From a virus: a DNA stretch of 64,000 nt. The stretch lies in UHGV virus genome UHGV-0279745, one strand, 5' to 3'. This document shows, piece after piece, positions 28,191 to 56,999 of the stretch; the first letter of the stretch is position 1; each line of letters opens with the position of its first letter. Made by a program: the position numbers and the translations under genes. The notes beneath the pieces are model-generated. The model did not search any database. It was not told the origin of the DNA and saw only the letters and a program-made list of their open reading frames with translations.

Positions 28191-29687
28191 ATGGCAGGCC
28201 CAACTAAGCAAGTTATCGGTGAAGTAATTCGTCCACGTTTTAACGTTTACACCATCATGGATCATGCCTTAGGTAACTACGAAAAAGGTGAAGATGGTTT
28301 GTACTACCTTAACGGTGGTTTTGCCCACATCATGGGTTTCGCAGGTCGCGGTAACACTTTTAAATCCACCTTGTTAGATTTCTGTATCTTCCAAATCCTG
28401 CAACGTTATAAAGCAGAGTGGGGTTCTAAGTACGATACAGAAGTGTCCGCTGCCCTCGATCGTTTAGAAACTGGGTACATCTCTGCCATGAACGCCAACG
28501 GTATCGACGACGGAACATCTGTACTGGAGCTTATCCACGAAGGTCGTTATAACCTGGTCGGTTCTGACGTAATGCCTGGGGAACAGTATTACAGTGATTA
28601 TATTCGTGATGAAGTTGAAAAACGCTTCAAACAGTATATGTCTGGTAAGACCCGTGTAACACCGTTCCCCGATCCGGTTCGTCGTAAGTTAAAAGAAATC
28701 CTGGACCCCTGGCTTTATTCTATCGACTCCCTGTCAGAGTGGCATTCCAGTTCGCTGGAAGACAAACACGCAAAAACGGATATCGGGGATTCTGATCAGA
28801 ACATCCTGAACGCCCACGACGCACTGCAAAAATCGAATATGATGAGCCGCTGGCCGTCTGCGTTTGCACGCGGCGGTTTTTACATGGGCTTCGTGGCACA
28901 GATGGCCGATGACTCTGGGAAAGCGATGGCGGGTGGCCGACAGGCTCAAAAAGCAAATGCGAAAATTCTCGACGACGCCAACGACGATTTAAAATTCGCA
29001 GGTATTCCTCGACGTCAGCTTAGCTTTTTAACAAACTCTTTTATCGTCGCGACGAAATCAGGTGAGCTGAAGAAAGACCAGAGCTATAACGCACAGACCG
29101 GTGTTAACGAAGAACTTTATCCGACGTCACGTTCTAAAGCGATGAATGCGTCGGTAAACGACTTGAAGATTATCACCTTTACCCAGTATCGTGCGAAGGG
29201 TGGTCACACCGGTGTGAAATTCCAGATGATCTTCTCTCAGGAAATGGGTCTGTTGTATCACCTGAGCCTGTGGCATTATTTAAGTGACACGCTGAAGAAG
29301 TCAGACTTTGGTTTCACATCAAGCGGTAGTGGAGGTTCCATCAAAGAACTTGACATTCTACCTGGTGTGAAATTCCAACGCACGACAATCCGTGATATGA
29401 TTTCTGATAACGCACGCTTACGTCGCGCTTTAGAAATCACTGCGGCAATTGCGTATATGCAAAACAACTACCATCGTCTTGAAATGAAGTATCATCTCAG
29501 CATGGGTGAGATTTACAAACTGATTGACGAGAAGTGGGACTGGAATGAAATTCTGGATAACACGGTAGAATACTGGATGTTTAAAGACCAGGAAACCAAA
29601 GGCGGTAAACGTACACTGACTGCACGTACCATTCTGGGTATGGCTGTTGATGGGCTAGAACCGAAGTTCCTGACGAAAAAGAAATAA
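28191..29687 (+). CDS. RecA/UvsX-family ATPase (putative recombinase)
   Basis: Walker A-like FAGRGNTFKST and Walker B-like LYSIDSL, which I recall as resembling the T4 UvsX motifs; longer than typical UvsX. Confidence 0.45.
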   Translation: MAGPTKQVIGEVIRPRFNVYTIMDHALGNYEKGEDGLYYLNGGFAHIMGFAGRGNTFKSTLLDFCIFQILQRYKAEWGSKYDTEVSAALDRLETGYISAMNANGIDDGTSVLELIHEGRYNLVGSDVMPGEQYYSDYIRDEVEKRFKQYMSGKTRVTPFPDPVRRKLKEILDPWLYSIDSLSEWHSSSLEDKHAKTDIGDSDQNILNAHDALQKSNMMSRWPSAFARGGFYMGFVAQMADDSGKAMAGGRQAQKANAKILDDANDDLKFAGIPRRQLSFLTNSFIVATKSGELKKDQSYNAQTGVNEELYPTSRSKAMNASVNDLKIITFTQYRAKGGHTGVKFQMIFSQEMGLLYHLSLWHYLSDTLKKSDFGFTSSGSGGSIKELDILPGVKFQRTTIRDMISDNARLRRALEITAAIAYMQNNYHRLEMKYHLSMGEIYKLIDEKWDWNEILDNTVEYWMFKDQETKGGKRTLTARTILGMAVDGLEPKFLTKKK

Positions 29688-29731
29688 ATAGGCTCGGGTA
29701 GGGTAAACCCTACCCGACCTAAGGAGTCATC

Positions 29732-30031
29732 ATGCGTTATCAAACGGAGATTGTGGAACGCTTAAGTGAAGGATTGGCAAGTGTTAATTTAGAAACAGCG
29801 GCCGAATTTCGTGAAGCCTTCACTCACCCGTTTCCCGATCTGGAATCCTTTTGTTTAAAGGTCGCTGAGTATTACTCGAATCTATTAGTACGTTACGGGT
29901 ATGCGCCAGTACGTTCCGAACTTCCTGAAAACACGGAAGCTATCAGCTACTGGATTGACCTGCTTGAAGCAGAAACGTTATCCAATTTACGTAAGGCGGT
30001 AGACAATGAAACTCGAACCAGCGCGGCGTAA
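29732..30031 (+). CDS. hypothetical protein
   Basis: ORF track; RBS cctaaggagtc. Confidence 0.5.
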   Translation: MRYQTEIVERLSEGLASVNLETAAEFREAFTHPFPDLESFCLKVAEYYSNLLVRYGYAPVRSELPENTEAISYWIDLLEAETLSNLRKAVDNETRTSAA

Positions 30032-30674
30032 AAAGGCGGAAGCCTACGCCTTACAAATCTTAAAGTTGGTAGACCCTTCTGGCATTAATGCTGAAGCCGC
30101 GAAGAAAGCCTTCGCACGAATGACCGACGAACAGTTTAACCGACTTCGTAACGGTTTACCTATTTACAACCCGGTGGGAAGTAAAGTCGAAATTGACCAC
30201 CTGCGCAATATCGAGGTGTGCAAAATTCTCGGGGTAAACCTGGAGCAACGACTCTGGTTAACAGAACCAAAAACGGGTGTTTATCACCGTACTCGTTACC
30301 CTCACTTAGTCTTACGCTTGCCTGTCCGTCGTCAGACACAGATGCAAGAAAAGAAAATGGCGGTTGCGAAAAACGACAAAGTTCGCGATAAACTCTCCGG
30401 TCAAGTCGTCGGACCTTCCAAAGCATCCGGGGTGTCCTTCCCAGAGGCATACATCATGTATTCCGATGGTCACGACTGGACACTGAAAGAGTTCTTGTGG
30501 GCGCGTGGTGGTAACGACGCACTACAACGTGCTTTCTATCAATCTCTGCGCCAAACCGGTAAAGGGCGTATTGATTTGCCTGGAGCGGAGCGAACGAGTT
30601 CTAAAGCAACGCGTACGTGGTCAGCGTACCTAAAAGCGATGCATATCGGTAACAACATAGGCCATCCGTCATGA
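30006..30674 (+). CDS. hypothetical protein (start uncertain)
   Basis: ORF track; overlaps upstream gene by 26 nt in another frame. Confidence 0.45.
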   Translation: MKLEPARRKKAEAYALQILKLVDPSGINAEAAKKAFARMTDEQFNRLRNGLPIYNPVGSKVEIDHLRNIEVCKILGVNLEQRLWLTEPKTGVYHRTRYPHLVLRLPVRRQTQMQEKKMAVAKNDKVRDKLSGQVVGPSKASGVSFPEAYIMYSDGHDWTLKEFLWARGGNDALQRAFYQSLRQTGKGRIDLPGAERTSSKATRTWSAYLKAMHIGNNIGHPS

Positions 30675-31393
30675 GATTATCTCGGCGTTTCTTAATCGAT
30701 ATTGATACGTTATTTGATACGCGTTTAGGTTGGGTAAAAGCCGTTAAGCCTGAAAGCTTAGCATTGCTAGACTACGATGTTTATCGTCGTCGCTATACAG
30801 AAGCTTGGGCTGGCGTACTTGGATTTGAAAAATGGGATGAAGAGTGGCGGAAGCGGGATAAGCGCGCGTTGATTAATGCGCAACCTACTGAATTATTGGC
30901 AACAATGAAAAACGAATTCGAGTGTATGTTGCTTGAAATCGAAATGCATTCGCCAATTGAAAAACCCACTCTGACCATCAATACGTGGCCGTATACGGAT
31001 TTAACGGGCGAAGAACTTCAAGCCTTTTTGAATCTGTTTCGGATGTACTACAATAACGTACAAGTTGAATTGGTGTCTTGGTCGTTAGAAGATCTCACAC
31101 CGGGGAGATTGTCGTTGGCGTGGGATTGCTGGATAATGTACGATTGGTTCGAGTGGATTAAGCTTAACGCTACGCACTTGAAAAAACCGATTCCGAGCTT
31201 TACCATCACACACCCTGCCATGCTCACACCAGAACTGACCGGGGAATTGGTTGAACAAATCAAACAAGACGGCGTTAATCCGTTTAAGGAACATATCCGG
31301 TTTATGGCAGAGTGGGTCGGTGTCGACCCACGAGATGCCGCTTTATTTAGTCTTGCTCGCCCTGCTCAGGACGTGCAAACGCCGCCGTCATAA
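30671..31393 (+). CDS. hypothetical protein
   Basis: ORF track; ATGA stop-start overlap. Confidence 0.55.
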   Translation: MRLSRRFLIDIDTLFDTRLGWVKAVKPESLALLDYDVYRRRYTEAWAGVLGFEKWDEEWRKRDKRALINAQPTELLATMKNEFECMLLEIEMHSPIEKPTLTINTWPYTDLTGEELQAFLNLFRMYYNNVQVELVSWSLEDLTPGRLSLAWDCWIMYDWFEWIKLNATHLKKPIPSFTITHPAMLTPELTGELVEQIKQDGVNPFKEHIRFMAEWVGVDPRDAALFSLARPAQDVQTPPS

Positions 31394-37072: not shown

Positions 37073-37618
37073 ATGAAACAAATACAGTTAACTGATCACG
37101 TTAATGCGTTTAAACACTTTCTGGATAACGCGGGTATAAAACCTGGCGAACAGACAGACGCATGGACTGCACGTGTTTACGGAAGTATTGGCAAAGTCTG
37201 TGAATCCACGACAACACACGATGGGTTGTTTGTTGCTAAAGCAGTAGGTATTGCCTTGTGGGATCTTGCTGCTTTGGTTTACGTGATGAATAACGGGGAT
37301 TTACGCCCCCTTGAAAAATCGTTACACAGACTACTAGCCATTAAGAAATGGAAAAACGAACATCCTGAGACAATCGCGGTGACGTTGATGCCAGAAGCGG
37401 TACTTGCTATCAAAGCGGTACGCAGTTGTACCGCACGCGCACAAATGGAGCGTCGACTACACCTCACGACGCTCTTTTATCAGTTGGCTAGAATTGTAAA
37501 GATGAACGGCCTAATCTTCGACCGGGTTCTACAAAACGGACGTATAAGTTGGACAGAAGAACTAAGCAGTTCTCCGTTCTATACAAAACTAAAGCTTAAA
37601 GACATTTTGAAGGATTAA
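37073..37618 (+). CDS. hypothetical protein
   Basis: ORF track. Confidence 0.55.
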   Translation: MKQIQLTDHVNAFKHFLDNAGIKPGEQTDAWTARVYGSIGKVCESTTTHDGLFVAKAVGIALWDLAALVYVMNNGDLRPLEKSLHRLLAIKKWKNEHPETIAVTLMPEAVLAIKAVRSCTARAQMERRLHLTTLFYQLARIVKMNGLIFDRVLQNGRISWTEELSSSPFYTKLKLKDILKD

Positions 37619-37619
37619 C

Positions 37620-37928
37620 ATGGAAAACTATTCGGGTTGGGCAATTTCGCAGTGCATTGGTTATTCTTTACGTTCTTTAGTGCGTACACTTTATAACAAA
37701 AACTCAGGCGAAGCTATTACACCACAGTTACTGGGCAAATTGGAAGTCGAAGTTAACCACAAATTAAAGCAGTTACTCGACAGCCACGTAAGAACAATGC
37801 GTTGGGAGTTCTTGCTACGTGGTAAGAAGCCAACAATTACCGTTGTAGCAGAAGGCAGTGAAATCGTACTGCAATCCAACGCAGACCTATTTGAAATTTT
37901 AACTGAACTCGAAAGGGACAAAATCTGA
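37620..37928 (+). CDS. hypothetical protein
   Basis: ORF track. Confidence 0.55.
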   Translation: MENYSGWAISQCIGYSLRSLVRTLYNKNSGEAITPQLLGKLEVEVNHKLKQLLDSHVRTMRWEFLLRGKKPTITVVAEGSEIVLQSNADLFEILTELERDKI

Positions 37929-38248
37929 TGGTTACGAACGACAATATCAAGAAAAAGATTGACGAAATTATAAGCGTCAGTTTAGATAGAATCGAATTAA
38001 TTCCCGAAACTAAGGAGATCAAATATTACGTTCCTGCGGACGAACTATTTCCAGGTCTTCTTAGAATCTCACCAAAAAAGGTTGAAGAGGCTAAACGGCA
38101 ATTCGAAGTTCGTGGCCTTAAGGTTGACATTGTTAACAAAAAACATTTCCATGTAACGTATAGCCAGGAAAACATTATATTTAGTCCTGAACAAGCGCAA
38201 CGTAATTTAGATATTTTAACGAAACGAATGGGGAATAATAACAAATGA
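37928..38248 (+). CDS. hypothetical protein
   Basis: ORF track; ATGA overlaps. Confidence 0.55.
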
Positions 38249-39279
38249 AACAGTATTTAGCGTTAATGCAAGACATTCTGGATAACGGTGTTGTCAAGAA
38301 AGACCGCACAGGTGTAGGGACACTATCTGTATTTGGTCGTCAACTACGTTTTGATCTGAAAGAAGGTTTCCCATTAGTTACTACGAAGAAGGTTCACCTG
38401 AAAAGTATCATTCATGAACTGTTGTGGTTCTTAAACGGTGACACTAACGTGAAGTACCTGCAAGAGAACGGGGTAAAAATCTGGAACGAATGGAGTGATG
38501 AAGAGGGGAACTTAGGGCCAGTTTATGGTAAACAATGGCGCGAATGGCGCGACTGTAAAGTTGTGGAGTGTCATGACGTAAGACGTACACAACAACTAAT
38601 GCAGCGGGGTTACAAGTATATTGGGAATATGAAGGAAGATGGTACGACGTATTTGGTTTATGAAAAACCACATGACCAGATCAGCAAAGTTATCCAACAA
38701 CTTCGTGAAGACCCTGACTCCCGCCGTATTATCGTTAGCGCCTGGAATGTAAGTGACCTGGACGACATGGCACTTAATCCGTGTCATAACTACTTCCAGT
38801 TCTACACTACAGAAATGACACTGCTTGAGCGACTGGATTGGTACGAAGCAAATGAACCGGAAAAATTTGCGAACGCGCCACTTATTAATCACGAAGATAT
38901 TGATGATGAAGAACGACTTCATGAAACTTTGGATCGTGAAGGTATCCCTCGTCGTAAGCTTTCATGTTTTTACATGATGCGCAGCAACGATGTCGCATTA
39001 GGAAAACCGTTCAACATCGCGTCATACGCTCTGTTAACTCATATAGTTGCCCAACAAGTGAATATGGTTCCCGATGAGTTAGTTTATAGTGGGGTCGATG
39101 TGCATTTATATCTGAACCACATCGATCAAATAAAACTCCAGTTGACTCGTGAGCCGTACCCGTTACCTAAATTGGTTATTAAACGTAAACCCGAATCTAT
39201 CTTCGACTACAAATACGAGGACTTTGAAGTAGTCGGTTACCAATCACACCCACACATCGCTATGCCTGTCGCGGTGTAA
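38245..39279 (+). CDS. thyA: thymidylate synthase (ThyA family) with two insertions
   Basis: Near-identical blocks to bacterial ThyA as I recall it ([71 protein letters not shown]); 344 aa versus about 264 for E. coli ThyA. Confidence 0.85.
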
Positions 39280-39308
39280 ACTACCACTTAACTAAAAGGA
39301 ATGATGAA

Positions 39309-39755
39309 ATGTCTAAAACTCATGTTAACTATAACATCGTAGTAGAAGAATTATCAAAAGGTTTAACTGATCTGGATTCTAAAGATAATCCGTTTACCGA
39401 TCGTTATGGAGCCAAAGCTTTATCTGAGTTCCGTACTATCCGCTACGGTACAGGCAGACAGACAGGACTTACAGACTTTGCTGTCGAGTTAGCTAAGAAC
39501 CATAAAGGGAAGGTATTATTCGTTAATCCAAAAGGGTTCTTAGAAGACGATGTGCTGTTCCGTTTGGGTCTCGAAGACTTGCCGGAGAATATCACGCAAA
39601 TCATCGGTTACCAAATGGGTACAGAAAAAGAAAAATACAGCCTTGTTATTGTAGATAACGCTGGGGTTTTCTTTAGCATTTTCCGTTACATGAAGTTCTT
39701 TCGCTTACTGGCAAACTCAGTAACTAAAGACGTTGTAATCCATTTAATGGGTTAA
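39309..39755 (+). CDS. hypothetical protein
   Basis: ORF track; RBS aaaaggaatga. Confidence 0.55.
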   Translation: MSKTHVNYNIVVEELSKGLTDLDSKDNPFTDRYGAKALSEFRTIRYGTGRQTGLTDFAVELAKNHKGKVLFVNPKGFLEDDVLFRLGLEDLPENITQIIGYQMGTEKEKYSLVIVDNAGVFFSIFRYMKFFRLLANSVTKDVVIHLMG

Positions 39756-39776: not shown

Positions 39777-39926
39777 ATGACGAATGATGTCATTAAAGTT
39801 ACTATAAAGTATATCAATCTGAATAAGAGAATCCGTTGCAAAGTAAATCGTAAAGCTATCGCTAGTCGCTGGCGTAAAGGTCCACACAAGGGTCGTAAAC
39901 GCTTTCTGGCTTTTGGGGATGTCTGA
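39777..39926 (+). CDS. small basic protein (49 aa)
   Basis: ATG with GAGGG RBS; RWRKGPHKGRKRF motif; not in ORF track. Confidence 0.35.
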   Translation: MTNDVIKVTIKYINLNKRIRCKVNRKAIASRWRKGPHKGRKRFLAFGDV

Positions 39927-40288
39927 TGAAAAAACCACGATTTCACAGCCTGAGATTCTTTACAGGTGCTCTATATTTTGTTGGCTACAACCGTGTACGT
40001 AAGGGTCCTGGTAAATCGAAGATGCGCATCGTGCGATATAAAGAAACGCCACCAGGTCTAGCACCGATGGCGAAACTTCTGTCGCCGTTCGCTAACCTTA
40101 AAATCAAAACTGTTAACCCCTTTGTAAGAAATTTGGGAACTAAAATGTCTGAAGAAGTTAAAGTAGAAACCGTTAAAGAAACTGATGAATTTGCAATCCC
40201 TGGCTTAGACCCGGAAGCTACCGTAGAGAAGGGTGCTGACCCAACTACGGAAGACGATAACTGCTCAGGTGGGGCTTGCAAAATTTAA
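39926..40288 (+). CDS. hypothetical protein with basic N-terminus and acidic C-terminus
   Basis: ORF track; RVRKGPGKSKMRI motif similar to upstream small ORF. Confidence 0.45.
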   Translation: MKKPRFHSLRFFTGALYFVGYNRVRKGPGKSKMRIVRYKETPPGLAPMAKLLSPFANLKIKTVNPFVRNLGTKMSEEVKVETVKETDEFAIPGLDPEATVEKGADPTTEDDNCSGGACKI

Positions 40289-40357: not shown

Positions 40358-41191
40358 ATGGGCGAACGTTTTGACATCAACACTATTTACAACATCGTAG
40401 TTAATCCTGGTCAACACCTGGAAGAAGTTAACGCGCAACTGCGCGCTCTGAATGAGAATGCAGTACAGTTCGATGCTATTTACACAATTGGTGTAAACCC
40501 TGGCACCAACCGTATTCGTGTAGAAGGTAAACGCCACACCGGTAATCAAGAACTGGACATCGAAACAATTGTAGCGCCTATTAAGCTTACCGATGCTGTT
40601 TACAACGGCACGGTAATGCATACAGAATCTGTTCCGGTCTACTCTATTGAAAACTGTGTAGAACGTGTTAAAGGTTGGTCTAAAGAACGTGGTATTCTCG
40701 ATAACGGTAAACTGGAAACCCAAATCACGAAGTTCTTTGAAGAGTTAGGTGAAATTGCGGCGGGTATCAGTAAAAACAAACCTGAGTTGATCATGGATGG
40801 TATTGGTGATGCGTTGGTGGTTCTGGTAAACATCATCGAATTAGGGGATGCTTATTCTGGTCACCTTACAGTGGCAGAAGACTGCATCGAGTCTGGTCTA
40901 CGCTTAGGTGTGGAAGATGTAGCTGAAGTTGAAGAAAATTTAAACAACGCTGGATACCCACATCAACAATACCTTCACGCTATTGAAAGTTTTGCCACAA
41001 CCTTTATGGAAGGCAAAGATCATGGTTTCGATTTCGTTAGCCTGGGTTTAGCTCATCTTGCTCGTATCGCCTTGTATTACAAACTGGACATTCGTCATTG
41101 TTTCTCTTTGGCCTGGCACGAAATCAAAGACCGTAAAGGTTACCTGAACGCCGACGGTATCTTTGTAAAAGAAGCAGACCTGGCGAAATAA
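40358..41191 (+). CDS. MazG-like nucleoside triphosphate pyrophosphohydrolase domain protein
   Basis: C-terminal half shows EELGEIA ... DGIGDALVVL ... WHEIKDRKG pattern typical of MazG/all-alpha NTP-PPase. Confidence 0.55.
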   Translation: MGERFDINTIYNIVVNPGQHLEEVNAQLRALNENAVQFDAIYTIGVNPGTNRIRVEGKRHTGNQELDIETIVAPIKLTDAVYNGTVMHTESVPVYSIENCVERVKGWSKERGILDNGKLETQITKFFEELGEIAAGISKNKPELIMDGIGDALVVLVNIIELGDAYSGHLTVAEDCIESGLRLGVEDVAEVEENLNNAGYPHQQYLHAIESFATTFMEGKDHGFDFVSLGLAHLARIALYYKLDIRHCFSLAWHEIKDRKGYLNADGIFVKEADLAK

Positions 41192-51203: not shown

Positions 51204-52823
51204 GTGAATAAACTTAATTGGGTTGACTTTTATCTGCTCAATGTAAACAAGTCTCTTGTGTCGCGATTACGACCCGTCACGACCACGGATACTTTCCAGG
51301 GGTTAACAAAAAACTTTCACCCCGAAGGTCTTTACTCTACAGAGATATTTGGACTCACGGGGAGTGAAGCGCGAGACTCTACTTTCTCTTATATCGATAT
51401 TAAACTCGATATCATTTCGCCGACGGTGTGTTTGGCGTTATTCCAACTCAAACAACTCTACGAAGAAATTTGTTCTGGAAAACGCTACGCAACGTGGAGC
51501 GAAAAAGAAAAAGATTTCGAACCGGCCTTGCCGGGAGACCCAGGCGCAGATACCGGTTTTAACTTCTTCCTCAGTCACTATAACGATTTAAAACCTAAGC
51601 GTAACGAGTCCCTACAACGTGACGAAACCGTGGATTTCTTTTTGAAATTCCGTCCCGTTAGTCTTAGTCGATACGTTCTCGTGTTACCCGCGGGTTTACG
51701 CGATTTAGTAATTCGACAAGATGGTAGAGAACAGGAAGAAGAAATCGGCGGGATGTATCGTCGGTTGGTATCACTCGCCAGGGCGATCCCTGACCGAGCA
51801 ACCCGTGTTGAATTAACTAACCCCGTACGCTGGAAGCTGCAACAAACCTTCAACGATATCTGGATGTATTTCTTTAACATCCAAGACGGTAAAGGGGGTT
51901 TCCAACGTCGTAAAGTGACGTCTCGTAAATTAATGAACGGGACACGTAACGTACTGTCCTCATTCTCGACGGGGTCTAAGTGCATGGGTCGTGAAGACGC
52001 TATTCGTCCCACCGACACCAAAATTGGTTTATACCAGGGCTTAAAAGCGTTACTCCCCGTTGCGCAATACCAGATACGTGAACGTTACCTCGGTAACATC
52101 CGTGCTGGTGACGGCAACCTTTACGGCGTAAACACCAAAACCCTTAAACGTGAATTCTTGGAAGTAGGTGGTCGTGTATACGACACATTCACCACCGACG
52201 ATGGGATTGAATCCTTAATCAACCGAATGGAAGCTCGCGAGCTTCGCCATCAGCCGATTATGTTGGACGACACCCACTACGTTGCGTTGGTTTACCAAGA
52301 CACCAAACATTTTAAGGTGTTCTACGATATTGAAGAACTTCCTAAAACGTTTGACCGAAAATTCGTCCACGGTATGACGCTCGTCGAATTGCTTTATTTG
52401 TCGGGCTACGAGCTTTGGAACGATTATTTCGGTTTCGTTACACGTTATCCCGTTACAGGCCGAGGCTCGACGTATTCATCGACCATAAGATTGGAGACCA
52501 CCACATCATCTTTATACTTAAAAGAACTGGAAGATGACTGGGAAACTGAAAAACCCCGAGGGGCTATCAGCTACCCTGACCGGTCGGTTCCTACCTTCGT
52601 TGAGTCGATGGCACCACACCCTTCACGCTTAGGTGGCTTAGGGGGTGACTACGACGGCGATACCGGGTCGTTTAACGCGCCTATGTCCCAGGAAGCACTC
52701 GAGGAAAACCGGAATTGGATACACTCGAAAAACTACTGGTTCGATTCTGATGGGAACTTTAAAATCAATCCTATCAACAACGTGATTAAACGTGCAACGC
52801 AAGCGTTATTAAAGAACCCATAA
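51204..52823 (+). CDS. multisubunit RNA polymerase beta-prime-like subunit (N-terminal catalytic fragment), putative
   Basis: GTG start with CAGGAG RBS; aa 482-486 DYDGD (nt 52647..52661) followed by NAPMSQEALEE, matching the beta-prime NADFDGD...PL..EA..EA active-site region. Confidence 0.5.
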   Translation: MNKLNWVDFYLLNVNKSLVSRLRPVTTTDTFQGLTKNFHPEGLYSTEIFGLTGSEARDSTFSYIDIKLDIISPTVCLALFQLKQLYEEICSGKRYATWSEKEKDFEPALPGDPGADTGFNFFLSHYNDLKPKRNESLQRDETVDFFLKFRPVSLSRYVLVLPAGLRDLVIRQDGREQEEEIGGMYRRLVSLARAIPDRATRVELTNPVRWKLQQTFNDIWMYFFNIQDGKGGFQRRKVTSRKLMNGTRNVLSSFSTGSKCMGREDAIRPTDTKIGLYQGLKALLPVAQYQIRERYLGNIRAGDGNLYGVNTKTLKREFLEVGGRVYDTFTTDDGIESLINRMEARELRHQPIMLDDTHYVALVYQDTKHFKVFYDIEELPKTFDRKFVHGMTLVELLYLSGYELWNDYFGFVTRYPVTGRGSTYSSTIRLETTTSSLYLKELEDDWETEKPRGAISYPDRSVPTFVESMAPHPSRLGGLGGDYDGDTGSFNAPMSQEALEENRNWIHSKNYWFDSDGNFKINPINNVIKRATQALLKNP

Positions 52824-52832
52824 GGCTAAGCA

Positions 52833-55800
52833 ATGCTGCTCATTAAACAGTTTAACCAACGCTTCTCGGTGCGTAAAACTGACGAGTTTGGTAATCCGAG
52901 GATTATCCCGCTCGAGAAGCTACAGATACCACGTGGTTCTGTACTCCATGTCATTGATCTCGACCAGGTGGTATTAGCGCCACCTGCAACACTCGAGATT
53001 ATTCAACCGTTAGAAAAACCTGCACAGGTTCGTCACCACTTTAAATTACCGGAAGACGGTATTAGCGGTCATCCGCGCAACAAACCTGTTCAGGGGCAAG
53101 AACGTGCTATCTTTGCTTACCACCGTGCAAACCGCCCGATGCGTCGTCTTACCTCAGACGATCTGGTTCGCAAAGACTTAAAAGTTCTCCTGGTCGAGAA
53201 CTACACACCGATGCTATCGCACTACTACTATCCTGACACCCAGTTAGCCTGGTACGATAGACTGCGTAACATCCAACTGTTGATGATTAACCAGTTCAAA
53301 TACGACACGCAAGAATACATGCGTCAGAACTATTTCGTTATTGAACTGGGTTCGACTCTACCTTCGTTCCAGAAGTTTCAAACAACCTATAACGACCGCG
53401 TTAAGAGCAAGATTGAGAAGTTCCAGGACTTCAACTTGCTGTGGTTATTGGAGTTGTTTGCTTGGGCTTATGGAAAACAATCCGATTCCCTATTCTCGGG
53501 AATGGATTTAACTCAGCTGTCACGAATGAACTTTATCTTCACCCACAACACGGGCTTTACGTCCATGAACATGGGTGTTGTAGAGAAAATGCGTAAGTCG
53601 TCCGGCGGTCGTTTAAGTGATGACCAAATGGCCAGGATGTTCTACCGTACGCTGGTGCGTGTAATGACACAAGCACCGTCTAACGCGTACGAAGCTGAAT
53701 TCCTAACGCCTGAAGGCGACGAGCGTGTTTTCCTTAAAGACGTCGAAGAAGAAACCGTTGATGTTGTCGACGATGACGATGTTGTTAATGACGCTGTGGT
53801 GGAATCCGATAACACCTTCGATGAAAAAGAAGACGTTGTTATTGAAGAACCGAAGGAAGACGTCAAACCGACGACCATCGTCGTCGAGAAAGTCATTCCA
53901 CATGACGAGATTATTAAACAGGAAGCACAACGCTTAGCTGAAGCGGGCCGCTTAAGTTCTAAAGCATATCAGTTCCTGTCAGAATCGTCTAAACGTTTCG
54001 TTCAGCTACCTAACCCGTATAACCCGAAAGAAACCTACGGGGAAGCACTGACTGTTCACGAGAAAGATATTGTCGTTAAAGCCGAACCGAAAAAAGTTCA
54101 GCGGCTTGTTACCGATGAAGGGTGGGCAGAGAACGTCACCGACCAGATGGTGAAACAATACAACCAGACCATGATGACCAAAGACGTACTGGCGGCGGTC
54201 GCCAGTTCACAACGTTTGGGTCTGGCGGTTCACAACCACACGGTGGAAAAAGAAGTTTCTGTTACAGGAACTATCGAGCACCACACTTTACGTGTTCAGC
54301 CAGTCGGTGGTGAGCCAACAACCGTTCGCTTCTCTATCCCAGGCTTGACCGAGGACGGTACTTGGGTCGCTAATGGTGTCGAATACACCATGCGTCGCCA
54401 ACGTGTGGACTTACCGATTCGTAAAGTTGCACCGGATACTGTCGCACTGACTACCGCTTACGGTAAAAACTTTGTCCGTCGTAGTGATAAGGTCGCGAAC
54501 GATTACGGTCGTTGGTTAACCAACGCGATTATCACACGCGCTGTTGACCCAACAAACACCGAAGTCACCGATGCACGTTTAGCAAATGTGTTCGATCCTA
54601 CGCAACATCTGCCTCGTCAGTATACGGAGATTGCACGCCGTATTGCCAGCTTTAATGCGAACGGCTATATGTGGAACTTCGACTACAAAGAAGCCGTTAA
54701 CTTCTTTAACGACGAGCAACTCAGAGACGCCGATGCTGCCAAACTTCTGCCAGTGGCGAAACGTCCGCGTAGTGAAACAATCCTGGCAATGGATGACAAA
54801 TCCATGCTTTACGGTGTGAACGGAAACAAAGTTGAACCGGTGGGGACTATCGCAGAGGTACTGGGCTTTAATAACCAGAAAGTGCCTCGCGAAATGACCG
54901 AGCTGTCTTTGATGGGTAAATCTTTGTCGCTTGGTTTTATCTTCTCGTTCTATCTTGGACTCCAGGGAATGTTGAAACATTTCGGTATCCAGTACGAGTT
55001 GGTTCCTACAGGACAGCGTGTTGATAAGAATGCCTACGACAGTATTATTCGACTACAAGACTGTAAACTTTTAGTTACTTGCGATAACGATCAGCAGAGG
55101 ATGATTCTGCATGGTTTGGATCGCTATCTCAAACACCTGGTTGCTTATACCGAATCAGAAGCAGACCGCGAAGACATTTACCTGAACTTATTACGTGAAG
55201 CAGATGGCCTAACGCCACGGTACATCAACGAGCTGAAACAGATGCGGTCCGCGTTTGTTGACGACATGCACGCACGTATCCTCAGGAAAATGGGTGAGCC
55301 GGAAACCTTTATTGGCTTGCTGGAACGTTCTAACGAACTGTTACAAACCGACCACTCTTTACCAGAGATTAACGGCGATGAAATGATGTTCTTAGGAAAT
55401 CAGAGGATTGCCTACCACATCTATACTGCGATGGTCAGAGCGATGCGTAACTACAATAACGCACCGGGCAGTAACCGTAAGTTCGAACTGACGCAAGATA
55501 TGGTTTGGGGTGCTATTAACTCCGACCCGTCGGTACTTTTGGCACCAGGCGCTAACCCTATCCAGTCAATTAAAGAAAAAGACGTTATTACGATGGGGGG
55601 TACAGGTGGTCGTAATCGTAAAACGATGGTCTACCACACACGTGAGTTCCAACCCAGTGATATCGGGATAGTCTCGGGTAACACCGTAGATAACGGCGAC
55701 GTAGGGATTACTGCTTTCGTCACCAATAACCCACGTTTTGACACCGTTGACGGTACTACGTTTAAGCGTGAAGAGAAAACCCCGAAACCGAGCGATACCC

Positions 55801-56999
55801 TTTCGTTTATTGACGGGTTAGTACCCGATACGTTAATGGACGATGCAAAACGTCAAAACTTCGTTGGGATTCAGTTAGGTTCTGCCACCAGTTGTAATGG
55901 GGCAACCACAACCCCGTATCGTACTGAACAGGAGAAATTCGTCGCTCACCGTACTTCGGTGAAACATGCACGCGTTATTGATAAAGCAGGTAAGATTACT
56001 GGTCTGTCGAAAGACCACATTGAAATTACGTACGAAGATGGAAGTAAAGAAGCCTTTCCTCTAGGGCGCTGGTTCGGCCCCCACGAAGGTACCTTCTATC
56101 CGCACACCTTGGTAACACGCTGGAAAGCCGGTGACAAGCTCCCGGCCGGAGCAGTGATTACGTACAACGAGCAACACTTTGAACCTGATATTTACGATCC
56201 TACTCAGGTTTCCTGGAAAAACGGGGTGCTGGCCACCGTTGCTTTATTAGAAGCTGAAGAAGTTATCGAAGACTCCAACGCAATTTCTGAACGGTTCGCG
56301 AAGAAAATGGTGGGGCAGGTAACAAAGCTGAAAGAAGTGACGATTAACAGCAACCAGATGCTTTTGGAAATCGTGAATGAGGGCGACCACGTAGACGTCG
56401 ATACAATCCTATGCACGTTTACTGACGACTTGACGGGCGATATGAGTGCCTTTAGTCAGGAAGCAGCCGCAACGTTGCAAAGTTTAAGTTCGTACGCACC
56501 TCGTGCAGGGGTACGTGGTATCGTGGATAAAATCGAAGTGGTGTATCACGGTGAAACCGAAGACATGACACCAAGCCTTGCTGAACTGGTGCGTAAATAC
56601 GACAGAATTCGTCGTAAAGCCGCACTGGCAGTCGGACGTGGTGATCCGGTTTCAGGCAGTGTAAACGGCGACTACCGTGTCGAAGGTGTACCCTTGGCCT
56701 TTAACTCACTTTGTGTTCGATTCTTTATTACACACGACGTTGAGATGGCCGCTGCGGATAAGATGGTTATTGCTAACCAGCTAAAAACCACCGTACAAGA
56801 AGTCATGTACGGCGACAACAAAACAGAGGATGGCGATGACCTGGACGTGTTGTTCGGTCGCGATTCCGTCGATGCGCGTATCGTAGGTTCAATCCAACGT
56901 ATCGGTACCGCGAATGCTGTAGGTGAACAAGCCGGGATTCTCATCGGGCGTATACTCGATGGGGAGGCTGTGCCTGATTTACCCGCGACACTTAAATAA
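52833..56999 (+). CDS. large hypothetical protein (1388 aa), possibly a further RNAP subunit or virion protein
   Basis: ORF track; immediately downstream of the beta-prime-like gene; no motif recognised with confidence. Confidence 0.7.
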   Translation: MLLIKQFNQRFSVRKTDEFGNPRIIPLEKLQIPRGSVLHVIDLDQVVLAPPATLEIIQPLEKPAQVRHHFKLPEDGISGHPRNKPVQGQERAIFAYHRANRPMRRLTSDDLVRKDLKVLLVENYTPMLSHYYYPDTQLAWYDRLRNIQLLMINQFKYDTQEYMRQNYFVIELGSTLPSFQKFQTTYNDRVKSKIEKFQDFNLLWLLELFAWAYGKQSDSLFSGMDLTQLSRMNFIFTHNTGFTSMNMGVVEKMRKSSGGRLSDDQMARMFYRTLVRVMTQAPSNAYEAEFLTPEGDERVFLKDVEEETVDVVDDDDVVNDAVVESDNTFDEKEDVVIEEPKEDVKPTTIVVEKVIPHDEIIKQEAQRLAEAGRLSSKAYQFLSESSKRFVQLPNPYNPKETYGEALTVHEKDIVVKAEPKKVQRLVTDEGWAENVTDQMVKQYNQTMMTKDVLAAVASSQRLGLAVHNHTVEKEVSVTGTIEHHTLRVQPVGGEPTTVRFSIPGLTEDGTWVANGVEYTMRRQRVDLPIRKVAPDTVALTTAYGKNFVRRSDKVANDYGRWLTNAIITRAVDPTNTEVTDARLANVFDPTQHLPRQYTEIARRIASFNANGYMWNFDYKEAVNFFNDEQLRDADAAKLLPVAKRPRSETILAMDDKSMLYGVNGNKVEPVGTIAEVLGFNNQKVPREMTELSLMGKSLSLGFIFSFYLGLQGMLKHFGIQYELVPTGQRVDKNAYDSIIRLQDCKLLVTCDNDQQRMILHGLDRYLKHLVAYTESEADREDIYLNLLREADGLTPRYINELKQMRSAFVDDMHARILRKMGEPETFIGLLERSNELLQTDHSLPEINGDEMMFLGNQRIAYHIYTAMVRAMRNYNNAPGSNRKFELTQDMVWGAINSDPSVLLAPGANPIQSIKEKDVITMGGTGGRNRKTMVYHTREFQPSDIGIVSGNTVDNGDVGITAFVTNNPRFDTVDGTTFKREEKTPKPSDTLSFIDGLVPDTLMDDAKRQNFVGIQLGSATSCNGATTTPYRTEQEKFVAHRTSVKHARVIDKAGKITGLSKDHIEITYEDGSKEAFPLGRWFGPHEGTFYPHTLVTRWKAGDKLPAGAVITYNEQHFEPDIYDPTQVSWKNGVLATVALLEAEEVIEDSNAISERFAKKMVGQVTKLKEVTINSNQMLLEIVNEGDHVDVDTILCTFTDDLTGDMSAFSQEAAATLQSLSSYAPRAGVRGIVDKIEVVYHGETEDMTPSLAELVRKYDRIRRKAALAVGRGDPVSGSVNGDYRVEGVPLAFNSLCVRFFITHDVEMAAADKMVIANQLKTTVQEVMYGDNKTEDGDDLDVLFGRDSVDARIVGSIQRIGTANAVGEQAGILIGRILDGEAVPDLPATLK

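What the first reader, a model, noticed from the sequence alone, without database searches (positions are those of the whole stretch)
38245..39279. Thymidylate synthase with a host-like core plus two insertions
The conserved ThyA blocks are nearly identical to enterobacterial ThyA as I recall it, which argues for a host-derived gene and an enterobacterial host. The protein carries an insertion of about 30 aa after GKQWREW and about 45 aa after PCHNYFQFY. The catalytic Cys and the Asn of PFNIASY are retained, so dUMP is the likely substrate. The inserts might alter partner interactions or activity (for example hydroxymethylation versus methylation).
Basis: partly seen in the sequence, partly recalled or inferred. 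Interest (0 to 1): 0.55.

Follow-up and report, generated by a model that had tools for sequence, protein, structure and literature searches.

The report
Jumbo-phage thymidylate synthase with two inserts
This is an ordinary dTMP-making thymidylate synthase gene of a large "nucleus-forming" phage of Salmonella/E. coli; its two extra surface segments are real but shared by many phage enzymes, one even by a solved bacterial enzyme, and nothing suggests new chemistry.

Summary
ORF 38245..39279 (+, 344 aa) is a full-length ThyA: Pfam PF00303 E=1e-110, and three NCBIfam thymidylate-synthase equivalog cut-offs passed. Against E. coli ThyA it aligns in three gapless blocks (67% identity). Insert 1 is aa 103-142 (net +34) and insert 2 is aa 190-236 (net +46). 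Both are in frame in 174 natural variants, under purifying selection, and fold confidently (AlphaFold pLDDT 92.9).

Neither insert is peculiar to this gene.
- Both occur in SPN3US, Goslar, Erwinia and phiKZ-like jumbo phages, in SSU5-like phage-plasmids and in many metagenomic phage contigs.
- Insert 2, an acidic helical hairpin, has no solved counterpart and looks phage-associated.

The residues that distinguish methylation from hydroxymethylation (L143) and dUMP from dCMP (N177) are retained, as are the catalytic and folate-binding residues I checked and the C-terminus. The hydroxymethylase idea is therefore not supported.

The core is no closer to E. coli than to a Bacteroidota ThyA (68.5% each), so a host origin is not shown. 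The window is a ~223 kb Chimalliviridae phage, probably the proposed genus "Bapsvirus". The role of the inserts remains inferred.

The parts
38245..39279 (+). thyA coding sequence (344 aa plus TAA). Its ATG overlaps the TGA of the upstream ORF 37928..38248 (ATGA).
   Evidence: ORF list and sequence. Pfam PF00303, 369.6 bits over aa 2-344. NCBIfam thymidylate-synthase equivalogs NF002499, NF002497 and TIGR03284 all above their cut-offs.
38245..38550 (+). Core block 1, aa 1-102 (includes R21, K48, E58, I79, W80, W83, Y94).
   Evidence: Gapless alignment to E. coli ThyA 1-102, 72% identity.
38551..38670 (+). Insert 1, aa 103-142: a small alpha/beta subdomain. Model elements spanning it and its flanks are strand 100-108, helix 112-120 and hairpin 124-131/134-144.
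38671..38811 (+). Core block 2, aa 143-189 (R160/R161 = Ec R126/R127; L177 = Ec L143; C180-H181 = Ec C146-H147; Q185 = Ec Q151).
   Evidence: Alignment to Ec 109-155, 68% identity.
38812..38952 (+). Insert 2, aa 190-236: an acidic helical hairpin (helices 193-203, 205-210 and 222-231; loop 211-221) at the tip of the beta-hairpin that carries C180 and R246.
   Evidence: AlphaFold2 secondary structure, with pLDDT about 64 only in the loop. Net charge is -10 over 47 aa. tblastn with this segment alone finds 70 phage records, all jumbo phages of 197-322 kb. No PDB or Pfam match.
38953..39276 (+). Core block 3, aa 237-344 (R246, S247, D249, G253, F256, N257, H287, Y289, C-terminal PVAV). M245 replaces Ec Q165.
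   Evidence: Alignment to Ec 157-264, 63% identity. All 174 family variants carry M at Ec position 165.
38782..38784 (+). Codon TGT for the catalytic nucleophile Cys180 (Ec C146).
   Evidence: Sequence and alignment.
38773..38775 (+). Codon CTT for Leu177 (Ec L143), the bulky hydrophobic residue thought to exclude water; it is Asp/Glu in hydroxymethylases.
   Evidence: Sequence. Criterion taken from PMC13326640, section 24.
39013..39015 (+). Codon AAC for Asn257 (Ec N177), which selects dUMP; it is Asp in dCMP-using homologs.
   Evidence: Sequence. Criterion taken from PMC13326640.

Best explanation
The gene encodes a canonical folate-dependent thymidylate synthase (ThyA, EC 2.1.1.45) of a ~223 kb phiKZ-like (Chimalliviridae) jumbo phage of Enterobacteriaceae. 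The phage is most likely a member of the proposed genus 'Bapsvirus'.

Inferred from the conserved residues and established ThyA chemistry:
- The enzyme acts as a homodimer.
- Cys180 attacks C6 of dUMP, which is held by R21, R246, S247, N257 and R160'/R161' from the partner subunit.
- The methylene of 5,10-methylene-tetrahydrofolate is transferred to C5.
- With L177 keeping water out, a hydride from the folate then gives dTMP plus dihydrofolate.
- A phage DHFR recycles the dihydrofolate; a DHFR gene is annotated in a closely related genome.

By analogy with PhiPA3, the enzyme would work in the cytoplasm, outside the phage nucleus, and feed phage DNA synthesis.

The two inserts are folded surface subdomains that leave the chemistry unchanged.
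- Insert 1 is an alpha/beta mini-domain in the variable loop that follows the GKQWR segment (Ec 100-108). It also occurs in the chromosomal ThyA of Burkholderia.
- Insert 2 is an acidic helical hairpin at the far end (about 30 A by strand length) of the Cys180/Arg246 beta-hairpin. So far it is seen only in phage or phage-plasmid ThyAs.
- Their most likely role (inferred, not shown) is in protein contacts, either stabilising the dimer or docking partner proteins.
For: Identity as a thymidylate synthase:
- Pfam and NCBIfam equivalog cut-offs are passed.
- Core identity to E. coli ThyA is 67%.
- The AlphaFold2 model has pLDDT 92.9 and pTM 0.91.

Chemistry:
- L143 and N177 are kept.
- All the catalytic and folate-binding residues I checked, and the C-terminal PVAV, are kept; the only exception is Q165M.

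The inserts are real and constrained:
- They are in frame in 174 variants.
- Window versus the E. coli 'plasmid' copy gives dN/dS of 0.07 for the core, 0.11 for insert 1 and 0.03 for insert 2.
- They are conserved from phiKZ-like phages to SSU5-like phage-plasmids.
- The 201phi2-1 thymidylate-synthase model matches with a query-normalised TM-score (TMq) of 0.92.

Insert 1 equals the subdomain in 3V8H. That ThyA comes from a gene listed as putatively essential in B. thailandensis (PMC3561365).

Phage identity:
- Split RNA polymerase beta genes lie in the window.
- Gene order matches SPN3US.
- The contig sizes and hosts fit the description of 'Bapsvirus' (PMC12768965).

Supporting context:
- A DHFR is annotated in the related NZ_CP173450.1.
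- PhiPA3 TS-GFP is excluded from the phage nucleus.
- phiKZ DNA is cut by HindIII, EcoRI, KpnI and NcoI in vitro. Together with both inserts in the phiKZ-like SL2 ThyA, this shows the insert-bearing enzyme type coexists with DNA that ordinary restriction enzymes can cut.
Against: - No activity data exist for any two-insert ThyA that I could find.
- Gln165 (Ec numbering) is Met here. From memory only, this Gln helps orient Asn177; I did not check that against any source. Its loss could in principle relax substrate discrimination.
- The position of the inserts relative to the partner subunit is unknown. Only a monomer model was available, and no coordinates were returned.
- The proposed contact role for the inserts rests on analogy only.
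- Cytoplasmic localisation and use of a phage DHFR are extrapolated from relatives.
Confidence: 0.85

Rival explanations
1. The inserts are functionally neutral structural baggage. They were fixed early in a ThyA lineage, possibly as remnants of in-frame mobile-element insertions at sites that tolerate them, and are now conserved only because they must fold without disturbing the enzyme. On this view they have no partner or regulatory role.
For: - Insert 1 sits in a housekeeping bacterial ThyA.
- Insert lengths and sequences vary widely among relatives. Insert 1 ranges from 0 to about +50 aa, and insert 2 occurs with or without insert 1.
- Site 1 also hosts 170-270 aa in-frame insertions, some with an I-HmuI-like homing-endonuclease domain.
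- The inserts alone match no known domain.
Against: - Purifying selection on the inserts is as strong as on the core.
- Motifs are conserved: T-x-E-L-T/S-x-x-E-R ... L-D-x-x-G-I/V-P-x-R in insert 2, and D-x-K/R-I/V-V ... R/K-G-Y in insert 1, across 40-50% identity clusters.
- The fold prediction is confident.
- Insert 2 persists across very distant phage groups.
Confidence: 0.25
2. The enzyme is a dUMP hydroxymethylase, or another C5-modifying thymidylate-synthase homolog that makes a precursor for modified thymidine. The inserts would adapt it to that chemistry.
For: - Phage thymidylate-synthase homologs with altered chemistry exist: T4 gp42, and the 5-hydroxy-dCMP synthases of RB69 and DLP3 (PMC13326640).
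- Q165M is a deviation near the pyrimidine-binding network.
Against: - L143 and N177 are of the thymidylate-synthase type.
- The folate-binding residues I checked and the C-terminus are intact.
- The protein passes thymidylate-synthase equivalog cut-offs.
- It is 38-59% identical to solved thymidylate synthases but only 18-23% identical to hydroxymethylases and hydroxylases.
- Insert 1 occurs in a bacterial housekeeping ThyA.
- phiKZ DNA is digestible by T-containing restriction sites, and the phiKZ-like phage SL2 carries a ThyA with both inserts.
- A DHFR gene is present in the related genome. DHFR is needed only if dihydrofolate is produced, that is by the methylation reaction.
Confidence: 0.03
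3. Loss of Gln165 (Met245) relaxes pyrimidine discrimination, so the enzyme also methylates dCMP or accepts other substrates.
For: - Met is fixed at this position in all 174 family variants.
- A residue other than Gln (M, I, L, A, V or C) recurs in 48 of 257 related, mostly phage-like, ThyAs.
- The role of this Gln in orienting Asn177 is recalled from the L. casei Q217/N229 literature and was not checked here.
Against: - Asn177 itself is retained in 255 of 257 relatives and in this protein.
- SPN3US keeps Gln with the same inserts, so the change is not linked to the inserts.
- There is no evidence of 5-methyl-dC in these phages.
Confidence: 0.03

Closest known systems
E. coli ThyA (264 aa; e.g. 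PDB 2TSC, 1TYS)
   Same: Same fold and the same catalytic, nucleotide-binding and folate-binding residues that I checked. The three core blocks are 67% identical and align without gaps. Foldseek target-normalised TM-score (TMt) is 0.96.
   Different: Lacks both inserts: the loop TPDGRH stands in place of insert 1 and a single Asp in place of insert 2. It has Gln165 where this protein has Met245.
Burkholderia thailandensis ThyA (BTH_I1680, PDB 3V8H; NCBIfam NF010393 type). A Pseudomonas megaplasmid thyA is of the same type.
ThyA of other Chimalliviridae: SPN3US gp037, Goslar gp141, Erwinia jumbo phages, phiKZ-like SL2, 201phi2-1
   Same: SPN3US, Goslar and SL2 carry both inserts at the same sites. 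Whole-protein identity is 58-64% for SPN3US, Goslar and the closest Erwinia phages. Gene order around thyA matches SPN3US (thyA ... mazG). The 201phi2-1 model matches with TMq 0.92.
   Different: Insert sequences are only 23-49% identical to the window's. phiKZ-like enzymes have a further insertion of roughly 100 aa upstream of Tyr94, and in SL2 a sequence carrying a GIY-YIG endonuclease gene interrupts the gene. The Erwinia phage Deimos-Minion lacks insert 1 but has the upstream insertion. Most of these keep Gln165.
ThyA of SSU5-like phage-plasmids (e.g. pSTM_Phi, 367 aa)
   Same: Has both inserts at the same two sites, with the same boundary motifs (RELxxxxR ... LDxLGIPRR). It lies in a nucleotide-metabolism module with nrdB, a MazG-family gene and DHFR.
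   Different: Core identity is only about 41% and insert 2 is longer. The phage group is unrelated. The neighbouring MazG-family proteins show no detectable similarity to those of the window.
Lactobacillus casei TS and T4 Td (classical 'TS with inserts')
   Same: Both are thymidylate synthases with extra surface segments. For T4 Td the segments have been proposed to mediate contacts within the dNTP-synthesising complex (recalled from the T4 TS structure paper, not checked here).
   Different: Their insertions lie upstream of Tyr94 (Ec numbering), at a different site. L. casei numbering is already offset by 52 at Tyr146/Tyr94 (established numbering; the offset of 52 at the DQI motif is visible). 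Neither has an insertion at the Cys146-Arg166 hairpin tip.

Membership tests
Thymidylate synthase ThyA (PF00303 / TIGR03284; EC 2.1.1.45) | Full-length match to curated family models above their cut-offs | tested here: met
   PF00303: 369.6 bits (cut-off 24.3), aa 2-344 matching profile positions 1-266. NF002499: 407.5 (cut-off 405). NF002497: 394.6 (327). TIGR03284: 339.8 (108).
Thymidylate synthase ThyA (PF00303 / TIGR03284; EC 2.1.1.45) | Catalytic Cys in the P-C-H motif, plus the phosphate-binding arginines (Ec R21, R166, R126', R127') and S167 | tested here: met
   C180-H181, R21, R246, S247 and R160/R161 all align to the E. coli residues.
Thymidylate synthase ThyA (PF00303 / TIGR03284; EC 2.1.1.45) | Asn at Ec 177 (dUMP rather than dCMP) and a bulky hydrophobic residue at Ec 143 (methyl rather than hydroxymethyl product) | tested here: met
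   N257 and L177 are present. The criteria are as stated in PMC13326640, section 24.
Thymidylate synthase ThyA (PF00303 / TIGR03284; EC 2.1.1.45) | Folate-binding residues and closing C-terminus (Ec I79, W80, W83, D169, G173, F176, C-terminal A-x-V-A-I/V) | tested here: met
   I79, W80, W83, D249, G253, F256 and the C-terminal MPVAV are present.
Thymidylate synthase ThyA (PF00303 / TIGR03284; EC 2.1.1.45) | ThyA fold | tested here: met
Thymidylate synthase ThyA (PF00303 / TIGR03284; EC 2.1.1.45) | dUMP + CH2-H4folate -> dTMP + H2folate activity; complementation of a thyA mutant | not testable with these tools
   Needs an enzyme assay or a genetic test.
Pyrimidine hydroxymethylases / hydroxylases of the TS superfamily (T4 gp42, MilA, dUMP hydroxymethylases, 5-hydroxy-dCMP synthases) | Acidic residue at Ec 143 (admits water). 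For dCMP/CMP enzymes, Asp at Ec 177. | tested here: not met
Two-insert phage ThyA subgroup (Chimalliviridae, SSU5-like phage-plasmids, related phage contigs); not a named family | Alpha/beta insert after QWRxW, plus a helical insert after FQFYT with the boundary motifs T-x-E-L/M-T/S-x-x-E-R and L-D-x-x-G-I/V-P-x-R | tested here: met
   Alignments A1, A3 and A4. tblastn with insert 2 alone finds 70 jumbo-phage records. 45 of 110 measurable 50%-identity cluster representatives carry both inserts.
Chimalliviridae / proposed genus 'Bapsvirus' (identity of the phage in the window) | phiKZ-type multisubunit RNA polymerase genes; ~220-226 kb genome; found in Salmonella, E. coli and Shigella assemblies; gene order like Seoulvirus with low nucleotide similarity; chimallin gene | tested here: inconclusive
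   RNA polymerase beta-subunit PHROGs hit at 51204..52823 and 52833..56999. Identical ThyA lies on 222-225 kb contigs from those hosts. Gene order matches SPN3US. There is no megablast match to any deposited phage. All of this fits the description in PMC12768965. Chimallin was not looked for, and no Bapsvirus reference genome was compared.

The most novel reading that the evidence does not exclude
Insert 2 is a phage-specific docking or shielding module. It is unusually acidic here (net -10). It would recruit ThyA into a phage nucleotide-synthesis assembly (for example with DHFR, MazG-type pyrophosphatases or ribonucleotide reductase), or it would protect the enzyme from a host factor.

The cassette-like replacement of insert 1 and of the insert 2 loop between otherwise 93-100% identical genomes would then reflect selection on these surfaces rather than neutral mosaicism.
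Probability: 0.2. Interest if true: 0.5.

Novelty: new member of a known kind. Interest (0 to 1): 0.25.

Why it matters
The gene itself is ordinary: a phage-encoded thymidylate synthase that RefSeq already annotates as such in sister genomes.

Two things are worth keeping. First, a large and mostly phage-borne ThyA subgroup carries a conserved helical subdomain at the tip of the active-site beta-hairpin. It spans nucleus-forming jumbo phages, SSU5-like phage-plasmids and many metagenomic phage contigs. I found no structure and no literature for this subdomain. If it mediates protein contacts, it would be a handle on how large phages organise dNTP supply.

Second, the work is a caution. High similarity to E. 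coli ThyA does not indicate host origin, and inserts in a thymidylate synthase do not by themselves indicate modified-base chemistry.

Tried and rejected
- **Megablast of the gene against deposited phages:** no match. The lineage is known only from bacterial assemblies and 'plasmid' records.
- **The inserts alone against PDB sequences and Pfam:** nothing for insert 2. Insert 1 alone also gave nothing, and was recognised only when queried together with its conserved flanks.
- **AFDB50 fold search:** the library was not available.
- **Introns as an explanation for the inserts:** rejected. The ORF is continuous, the inserts are under purifying selection, and Rfam finds no intron model in 38000..39500; the only hit is a sub-threshold CRISPR-repeat match (E=0.72), which I take as noise.
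- **A shared ThyA-MazG module between SSU5-like elements and the window:** the neighbouring proteins show no pairwise similarity.
- **DHFR in the window:** not found by tblastn or by Pfam on a sample of ORFs. A DHFR is annotated about 95 kb away in the related NZ_CP173450.1.
- **Neighbour-joining tree on core columns, to test a single origin of the inserts:** insert-bearing and insert-less sequences interleave. The tree is too poorly resolved, or too mosaic, to decide.
- **Second protein search with profile A1:** it returned almost only near-identical family members. A profile of environmental sequences (A2) was needed to get a diverse alignment for the structure prediction.
- **Placing the inserts relative to the partner subunit:** not possible. 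The tool returns no coordinates and models only a monomer.

Full report
**Observation.** The window has an ATG..TAA ORF at exactly 38245..39279 (+), encoding 344 aa. Its start overlaps the stop of the upstream ORF (ATGA). Pfam PF00303 matches aa 2-344 over the whole 266-position profile (369.6 bits, E=1e-110).

HMMER against PDB sequences aligns the protein to E. coli ThyA in three gapless blocks: 1-102 = Ec 1-102, 143-189 = Ec 109-155, 237-344 = Ec 157-264. Block identities are 72%, 68% and 63%, which is 173/257 = 67% overall.
- Insert 1 is aa 103-142 (nt 38551-38670). It is 40 aa replacing six E. coli residues, net +34.
- Insert 2 is aa 190-236 (nt 38812-38952). It is 47 aa replacing one residue, net +46.

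**What genome this is.** The window carries split RNA polymerase beta-subunit genes of the phiKZ type (51204..52823 and 52833..56999). It also has a 2374-aa tail-fibre/transglycosylase protein, a UvsX-like recombinase and virion proteins. Around thyA the gene order matches Salmonella phage SPN3US, including a MazG gene at 40358..41191.

The thyA DNA has no megablast match among 50,697 deposited phages. However, proteins 93-100% identical to it sit on contigs of up to ~222-225 kb in Salmonella, E. coli and Shigella assemblies. Related copies (83-88% nucleotide identity) are deposited as circular ~222 kb 'plasmids' of E. coli 98232 and Enterobacter ludwigii.

This fits the jumbo phages recently described from bacterial assemblies. 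In particular it fits the proposed Chimalliviridae genus 'Bapsvirus': ~220-226 kb, found in Salmonella, E. coli and Shigella, with gene order like Seoulvirus (PMC12768965; see also 10.1101/2024.12.31.630880). I did not look for chimallin and did not compare a Bapsvirus reference genome, so the genus assignment is probable, not proven.

**Are the inserts real protein?** Yes.
- All 174 family variants retrieved are in frame. Lengths are 344 or 339 aa, and the 5-aa difference lies in the loop of insert 2.
- Between the window and the E. coli 'plasmid' copy, dN/dS is 0.07 for the core, 0.11 for insert 1 and 0.03 for insert 2.
- AlphaFold2, run on a diverse 60-sequence alignment, gives mean pLDDT 92.9 and pTM 0.91.
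- In the model, insert 1 and its flanks form strand 100-108, helix 112-120 and hairpin 124-131/134-144, with pLDDT 93-96.
- Insert 2 forms helices 193-203, 205-210 and 222-231, joined by a lower-confidence loop (211-221, pLDDT about 64).
- Insert 2 sits at the tip of the hairpin formed by strands 181-190 and 237-249. Those strands begin at Cys180 and end near Arg246. By strand length the tip is roughly 30 A from that subunit's active site (inference).
- Rfam finds no intron model in the region. The window's insert 2 is strongly acidic, net -10.

**Distribution of the inserts.**
- tblastn with the whole protein shows that SPN3US-like, Goslar, Proteus and Erwinia jumbo phages match over 100% of the length at 58-64% identity.
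- tblastn with insert 2 plus only a few flanking residues finds 70 records. All are jumbo phages of 197-322 kb, and they include phiKZ-like Pseudomonas phages.
- The translated SL2 (phiKZ-like) enzyme carries both inserts.
- The predicted structure of 201phi2-1 thymidylate synthase matches the model with a query-normalised TM-score (TMq) of 0.92.
- An exhaustive HMMER search of 50%-identity cluster representatives gave 110 measurable top hits. Of these, 45 have both inserts, 33 have insert 2 with little or no insert 1, 10 have insert 1 only, and 12 have neither. The list is biased towards the query.
- Two metagenomic contigs with insert-2 ThyAs are phage-like nucleotide-metabolism modules (nrdA-nrdB ... 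thyA-DHFR), one of them also with a MazG-family gene.
- The ThyA of an SSU5-like phage-plasmid (pSTM_Phi, 367 aa) also has both inserts.

**Insert 2 has no counterpart in PDB sequences or Pfam**. I scanned 185,579 species-representative genomes with a DNA pattern for its N-terminal boundary motif. This found 5 loci: three on short MAG contigs and two on longer contigs whose neighbouring genes look phage-like. The pattern detects only about 16% of known insert-2 ThyAs. The result therefore indicates rarity in cellular genomes, not absence.

**Chemistry.** All the catalytic and binding residues I checked align with those of E. coli ThyA: R21, K48, E58, I79, W80, W83, Y94, R160/R161 (Ec 126/127), C180-H181, Q185, R246, S247, D249, G253, F256, N257, H287, Y289 and the C-terminal PVAV.

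The one deviation is Ec Q165, which is Met245 here. Met is fixed in all 174 variants. A residue other than Gln (M, I, L, A, V or C) recurs at this position in 48 of 257 related ThyAs. From memory only, this Gln helps orient Asn177, so I keep relaxed specificity as a low-probability rival.

Three pieces of context fit the methylation cycle:
- A DHFR gene is annotated in the related genome NZ_CP173450.1.
- phiKZ DNA is cut by HindIII, EcoRI, KpnI and NcoI in vitro (10.1101/370791), and the phiKZ-like phage SL2 has a ThyA with both inserts.
- PhiPA3 thymidylate synthase-GFP is excluded from the phage nucleus. This suggests, but does not show, that the enzyme works in the cytoplasm.

**Origin.** Core identity to E. 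coli ThyA (68.5%) equals that to a Bacteroidota ThyA (Fulvivirga, 68.5%). It is lower than to SPN3US or Goslar (74-75%). The similarity reflects the general conservation of ThyA, so it does not show an enterobacterial origin. A neighbour-joining tree on core columns interleaves insert-bearing and insert-less sequences and cannot decide how often the inserts were gained or lost.

**Mosaicism.** The window and its two 'plasmid' relatives are 93-100% identical in the flanking genes, but identity drops sharply inside thyA.
- Window versus Enterobacter copy: identity falls to 45-55% exactly over insert 1 (35% at the protein level, against 96% in the core).
- Window versus Enterobacter copy: identity falls to 50-62% over the insert 2 loop.
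- Window versus E. coli copy: identity falls to 65-80% over the C-terminal third.

Both synonymous and non-synonymous sites are saturated in insert 1. That points to exchange with a divergent allele rather than rapid point evolution. I could not identify the donor.

**Verdict.** This is a genuine thymidylate synthase of a phiKZ-like jumbo phage. It belongs to a widespread, largely phage-borne subgroup with two surface subdomains.
- Insert 1 already has a solved structure in a bacterial enzyme.
- Insert 2 is uncharacterised and apparently phage-associated.

The role of the inserts (contacts or dimer stability versus neutral baggage) remains an inference and needs a dimer structure, deletion variants and interaction data.

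Noticed in passing
window 38464-39270 (within thyA), compared with L003 and L004: thyA is a local mosaic hot spot. Flanking genes are 93-100% identical among the window, the E. coli 'plasmid' NZ_CP173450.1 and the Enterobacter 'plasmid' NZ_CP134650.1. Identity falls to 45-55% over insert 1 and 50-62% over the insert 2 loop (versus Enterobacter), and to 65-80% over the C-terminal third (versus E. coli). This looks like allele or cassette exchange; the donor is unknown.
   Followed up: partly
window 37073..37618 and 37620..37928 (+): Two adjacent ORFs (181 and 102 aa) match the N-terminal and C-terminal parts of a single PHROG (phrog_10269, 299 positions). The window's MazG-family protein (40358..41191) also hits this PHROG weakly. 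In SPN3US a single 289-aa gene (gp038) occupies the corresponding position directly upstream of thyA. The same split is annotated in both 'plasmid' relatives, so it is a conserved split rather than a sequencing error.
   Followed up: partly
whole window; NZ_CP173450.1 (E. coli 98232) and NZ_CP134650.1 (Enterobacter ludwigii): Relatives of this ~223 kb jumbo phage are deposited as complete circular 'plasmids' of about 222 kb in RefSeq and PLSDB. Hundreds of assemblies of Salmonella, E. coli and Shigella carry the phage. This matches the recently described assembly-associated or 'persistent' lytic jumbo phages (proposed genus Bapsvirus).
   Followed up: partly
L007 (Pseudomonas phage SL2) 1598-4068: In this phiKZ-like phage the annotated thyA CDS stops right after '...LSCQLYQR'. 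A GIY-YIG nuclease gene follows. The rest of ThyA ('...FLGKPFNITFY...GKVAV') continues about 1.1 kb downstream, partly annotated as a hypothetical protein. The gene appears to be interrupted by an intron-like element carrying a homing endonuclease.
   Followed up: partly
proteins P0143, P0162, P0168 (and P0156, P0160, P0201, P0263, P0268): Some metagenomic ThyAs have 170-270 extra residues in frame at the insert 1 site. Three of them contain an I-HmuI-like NUMOD homing-endonuclease domain. This may be read-through of mobile elements or true domain insertions. Either way, site 1 is an insertion hot spot.
   Followed up: partly
window 39926..40288 (+), C-terminal ~35 aa: The last 31-35 residues of this ORF (ending ...DDNCSGGACKI) match three small PHROGs of unknown function. 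In both 'plasmid' relatives only a 47-aa CDS is annotated here, with the same protein accession in both (WP_156670481.1). It is a highly conserved small Cys-containing peptide of unknown role.
   Followed up: no
window 38974-38979 (codons 244-245): Ec Y164-Q165 is replaced by Met-Met (FYMM in place of QLYQ). Met at Ec position 165 is fixed in all 174 family variants. A residue other than Gln (M, I, L, A, V or C) recurs at this position in 48 of 257 other, mostly phage-like, ThyAs.
   Followed up: partly
L013 (NZ_CP173450.1) 28603-30724: The related phage genome encodes two adjacent radical SAM proteins. In L014 (11340-13134) it encodes a DNA adenine methylase next to a GNAT acetyltransferase. 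Both lie outside the part equivalent to this finding.
   Followed up: no
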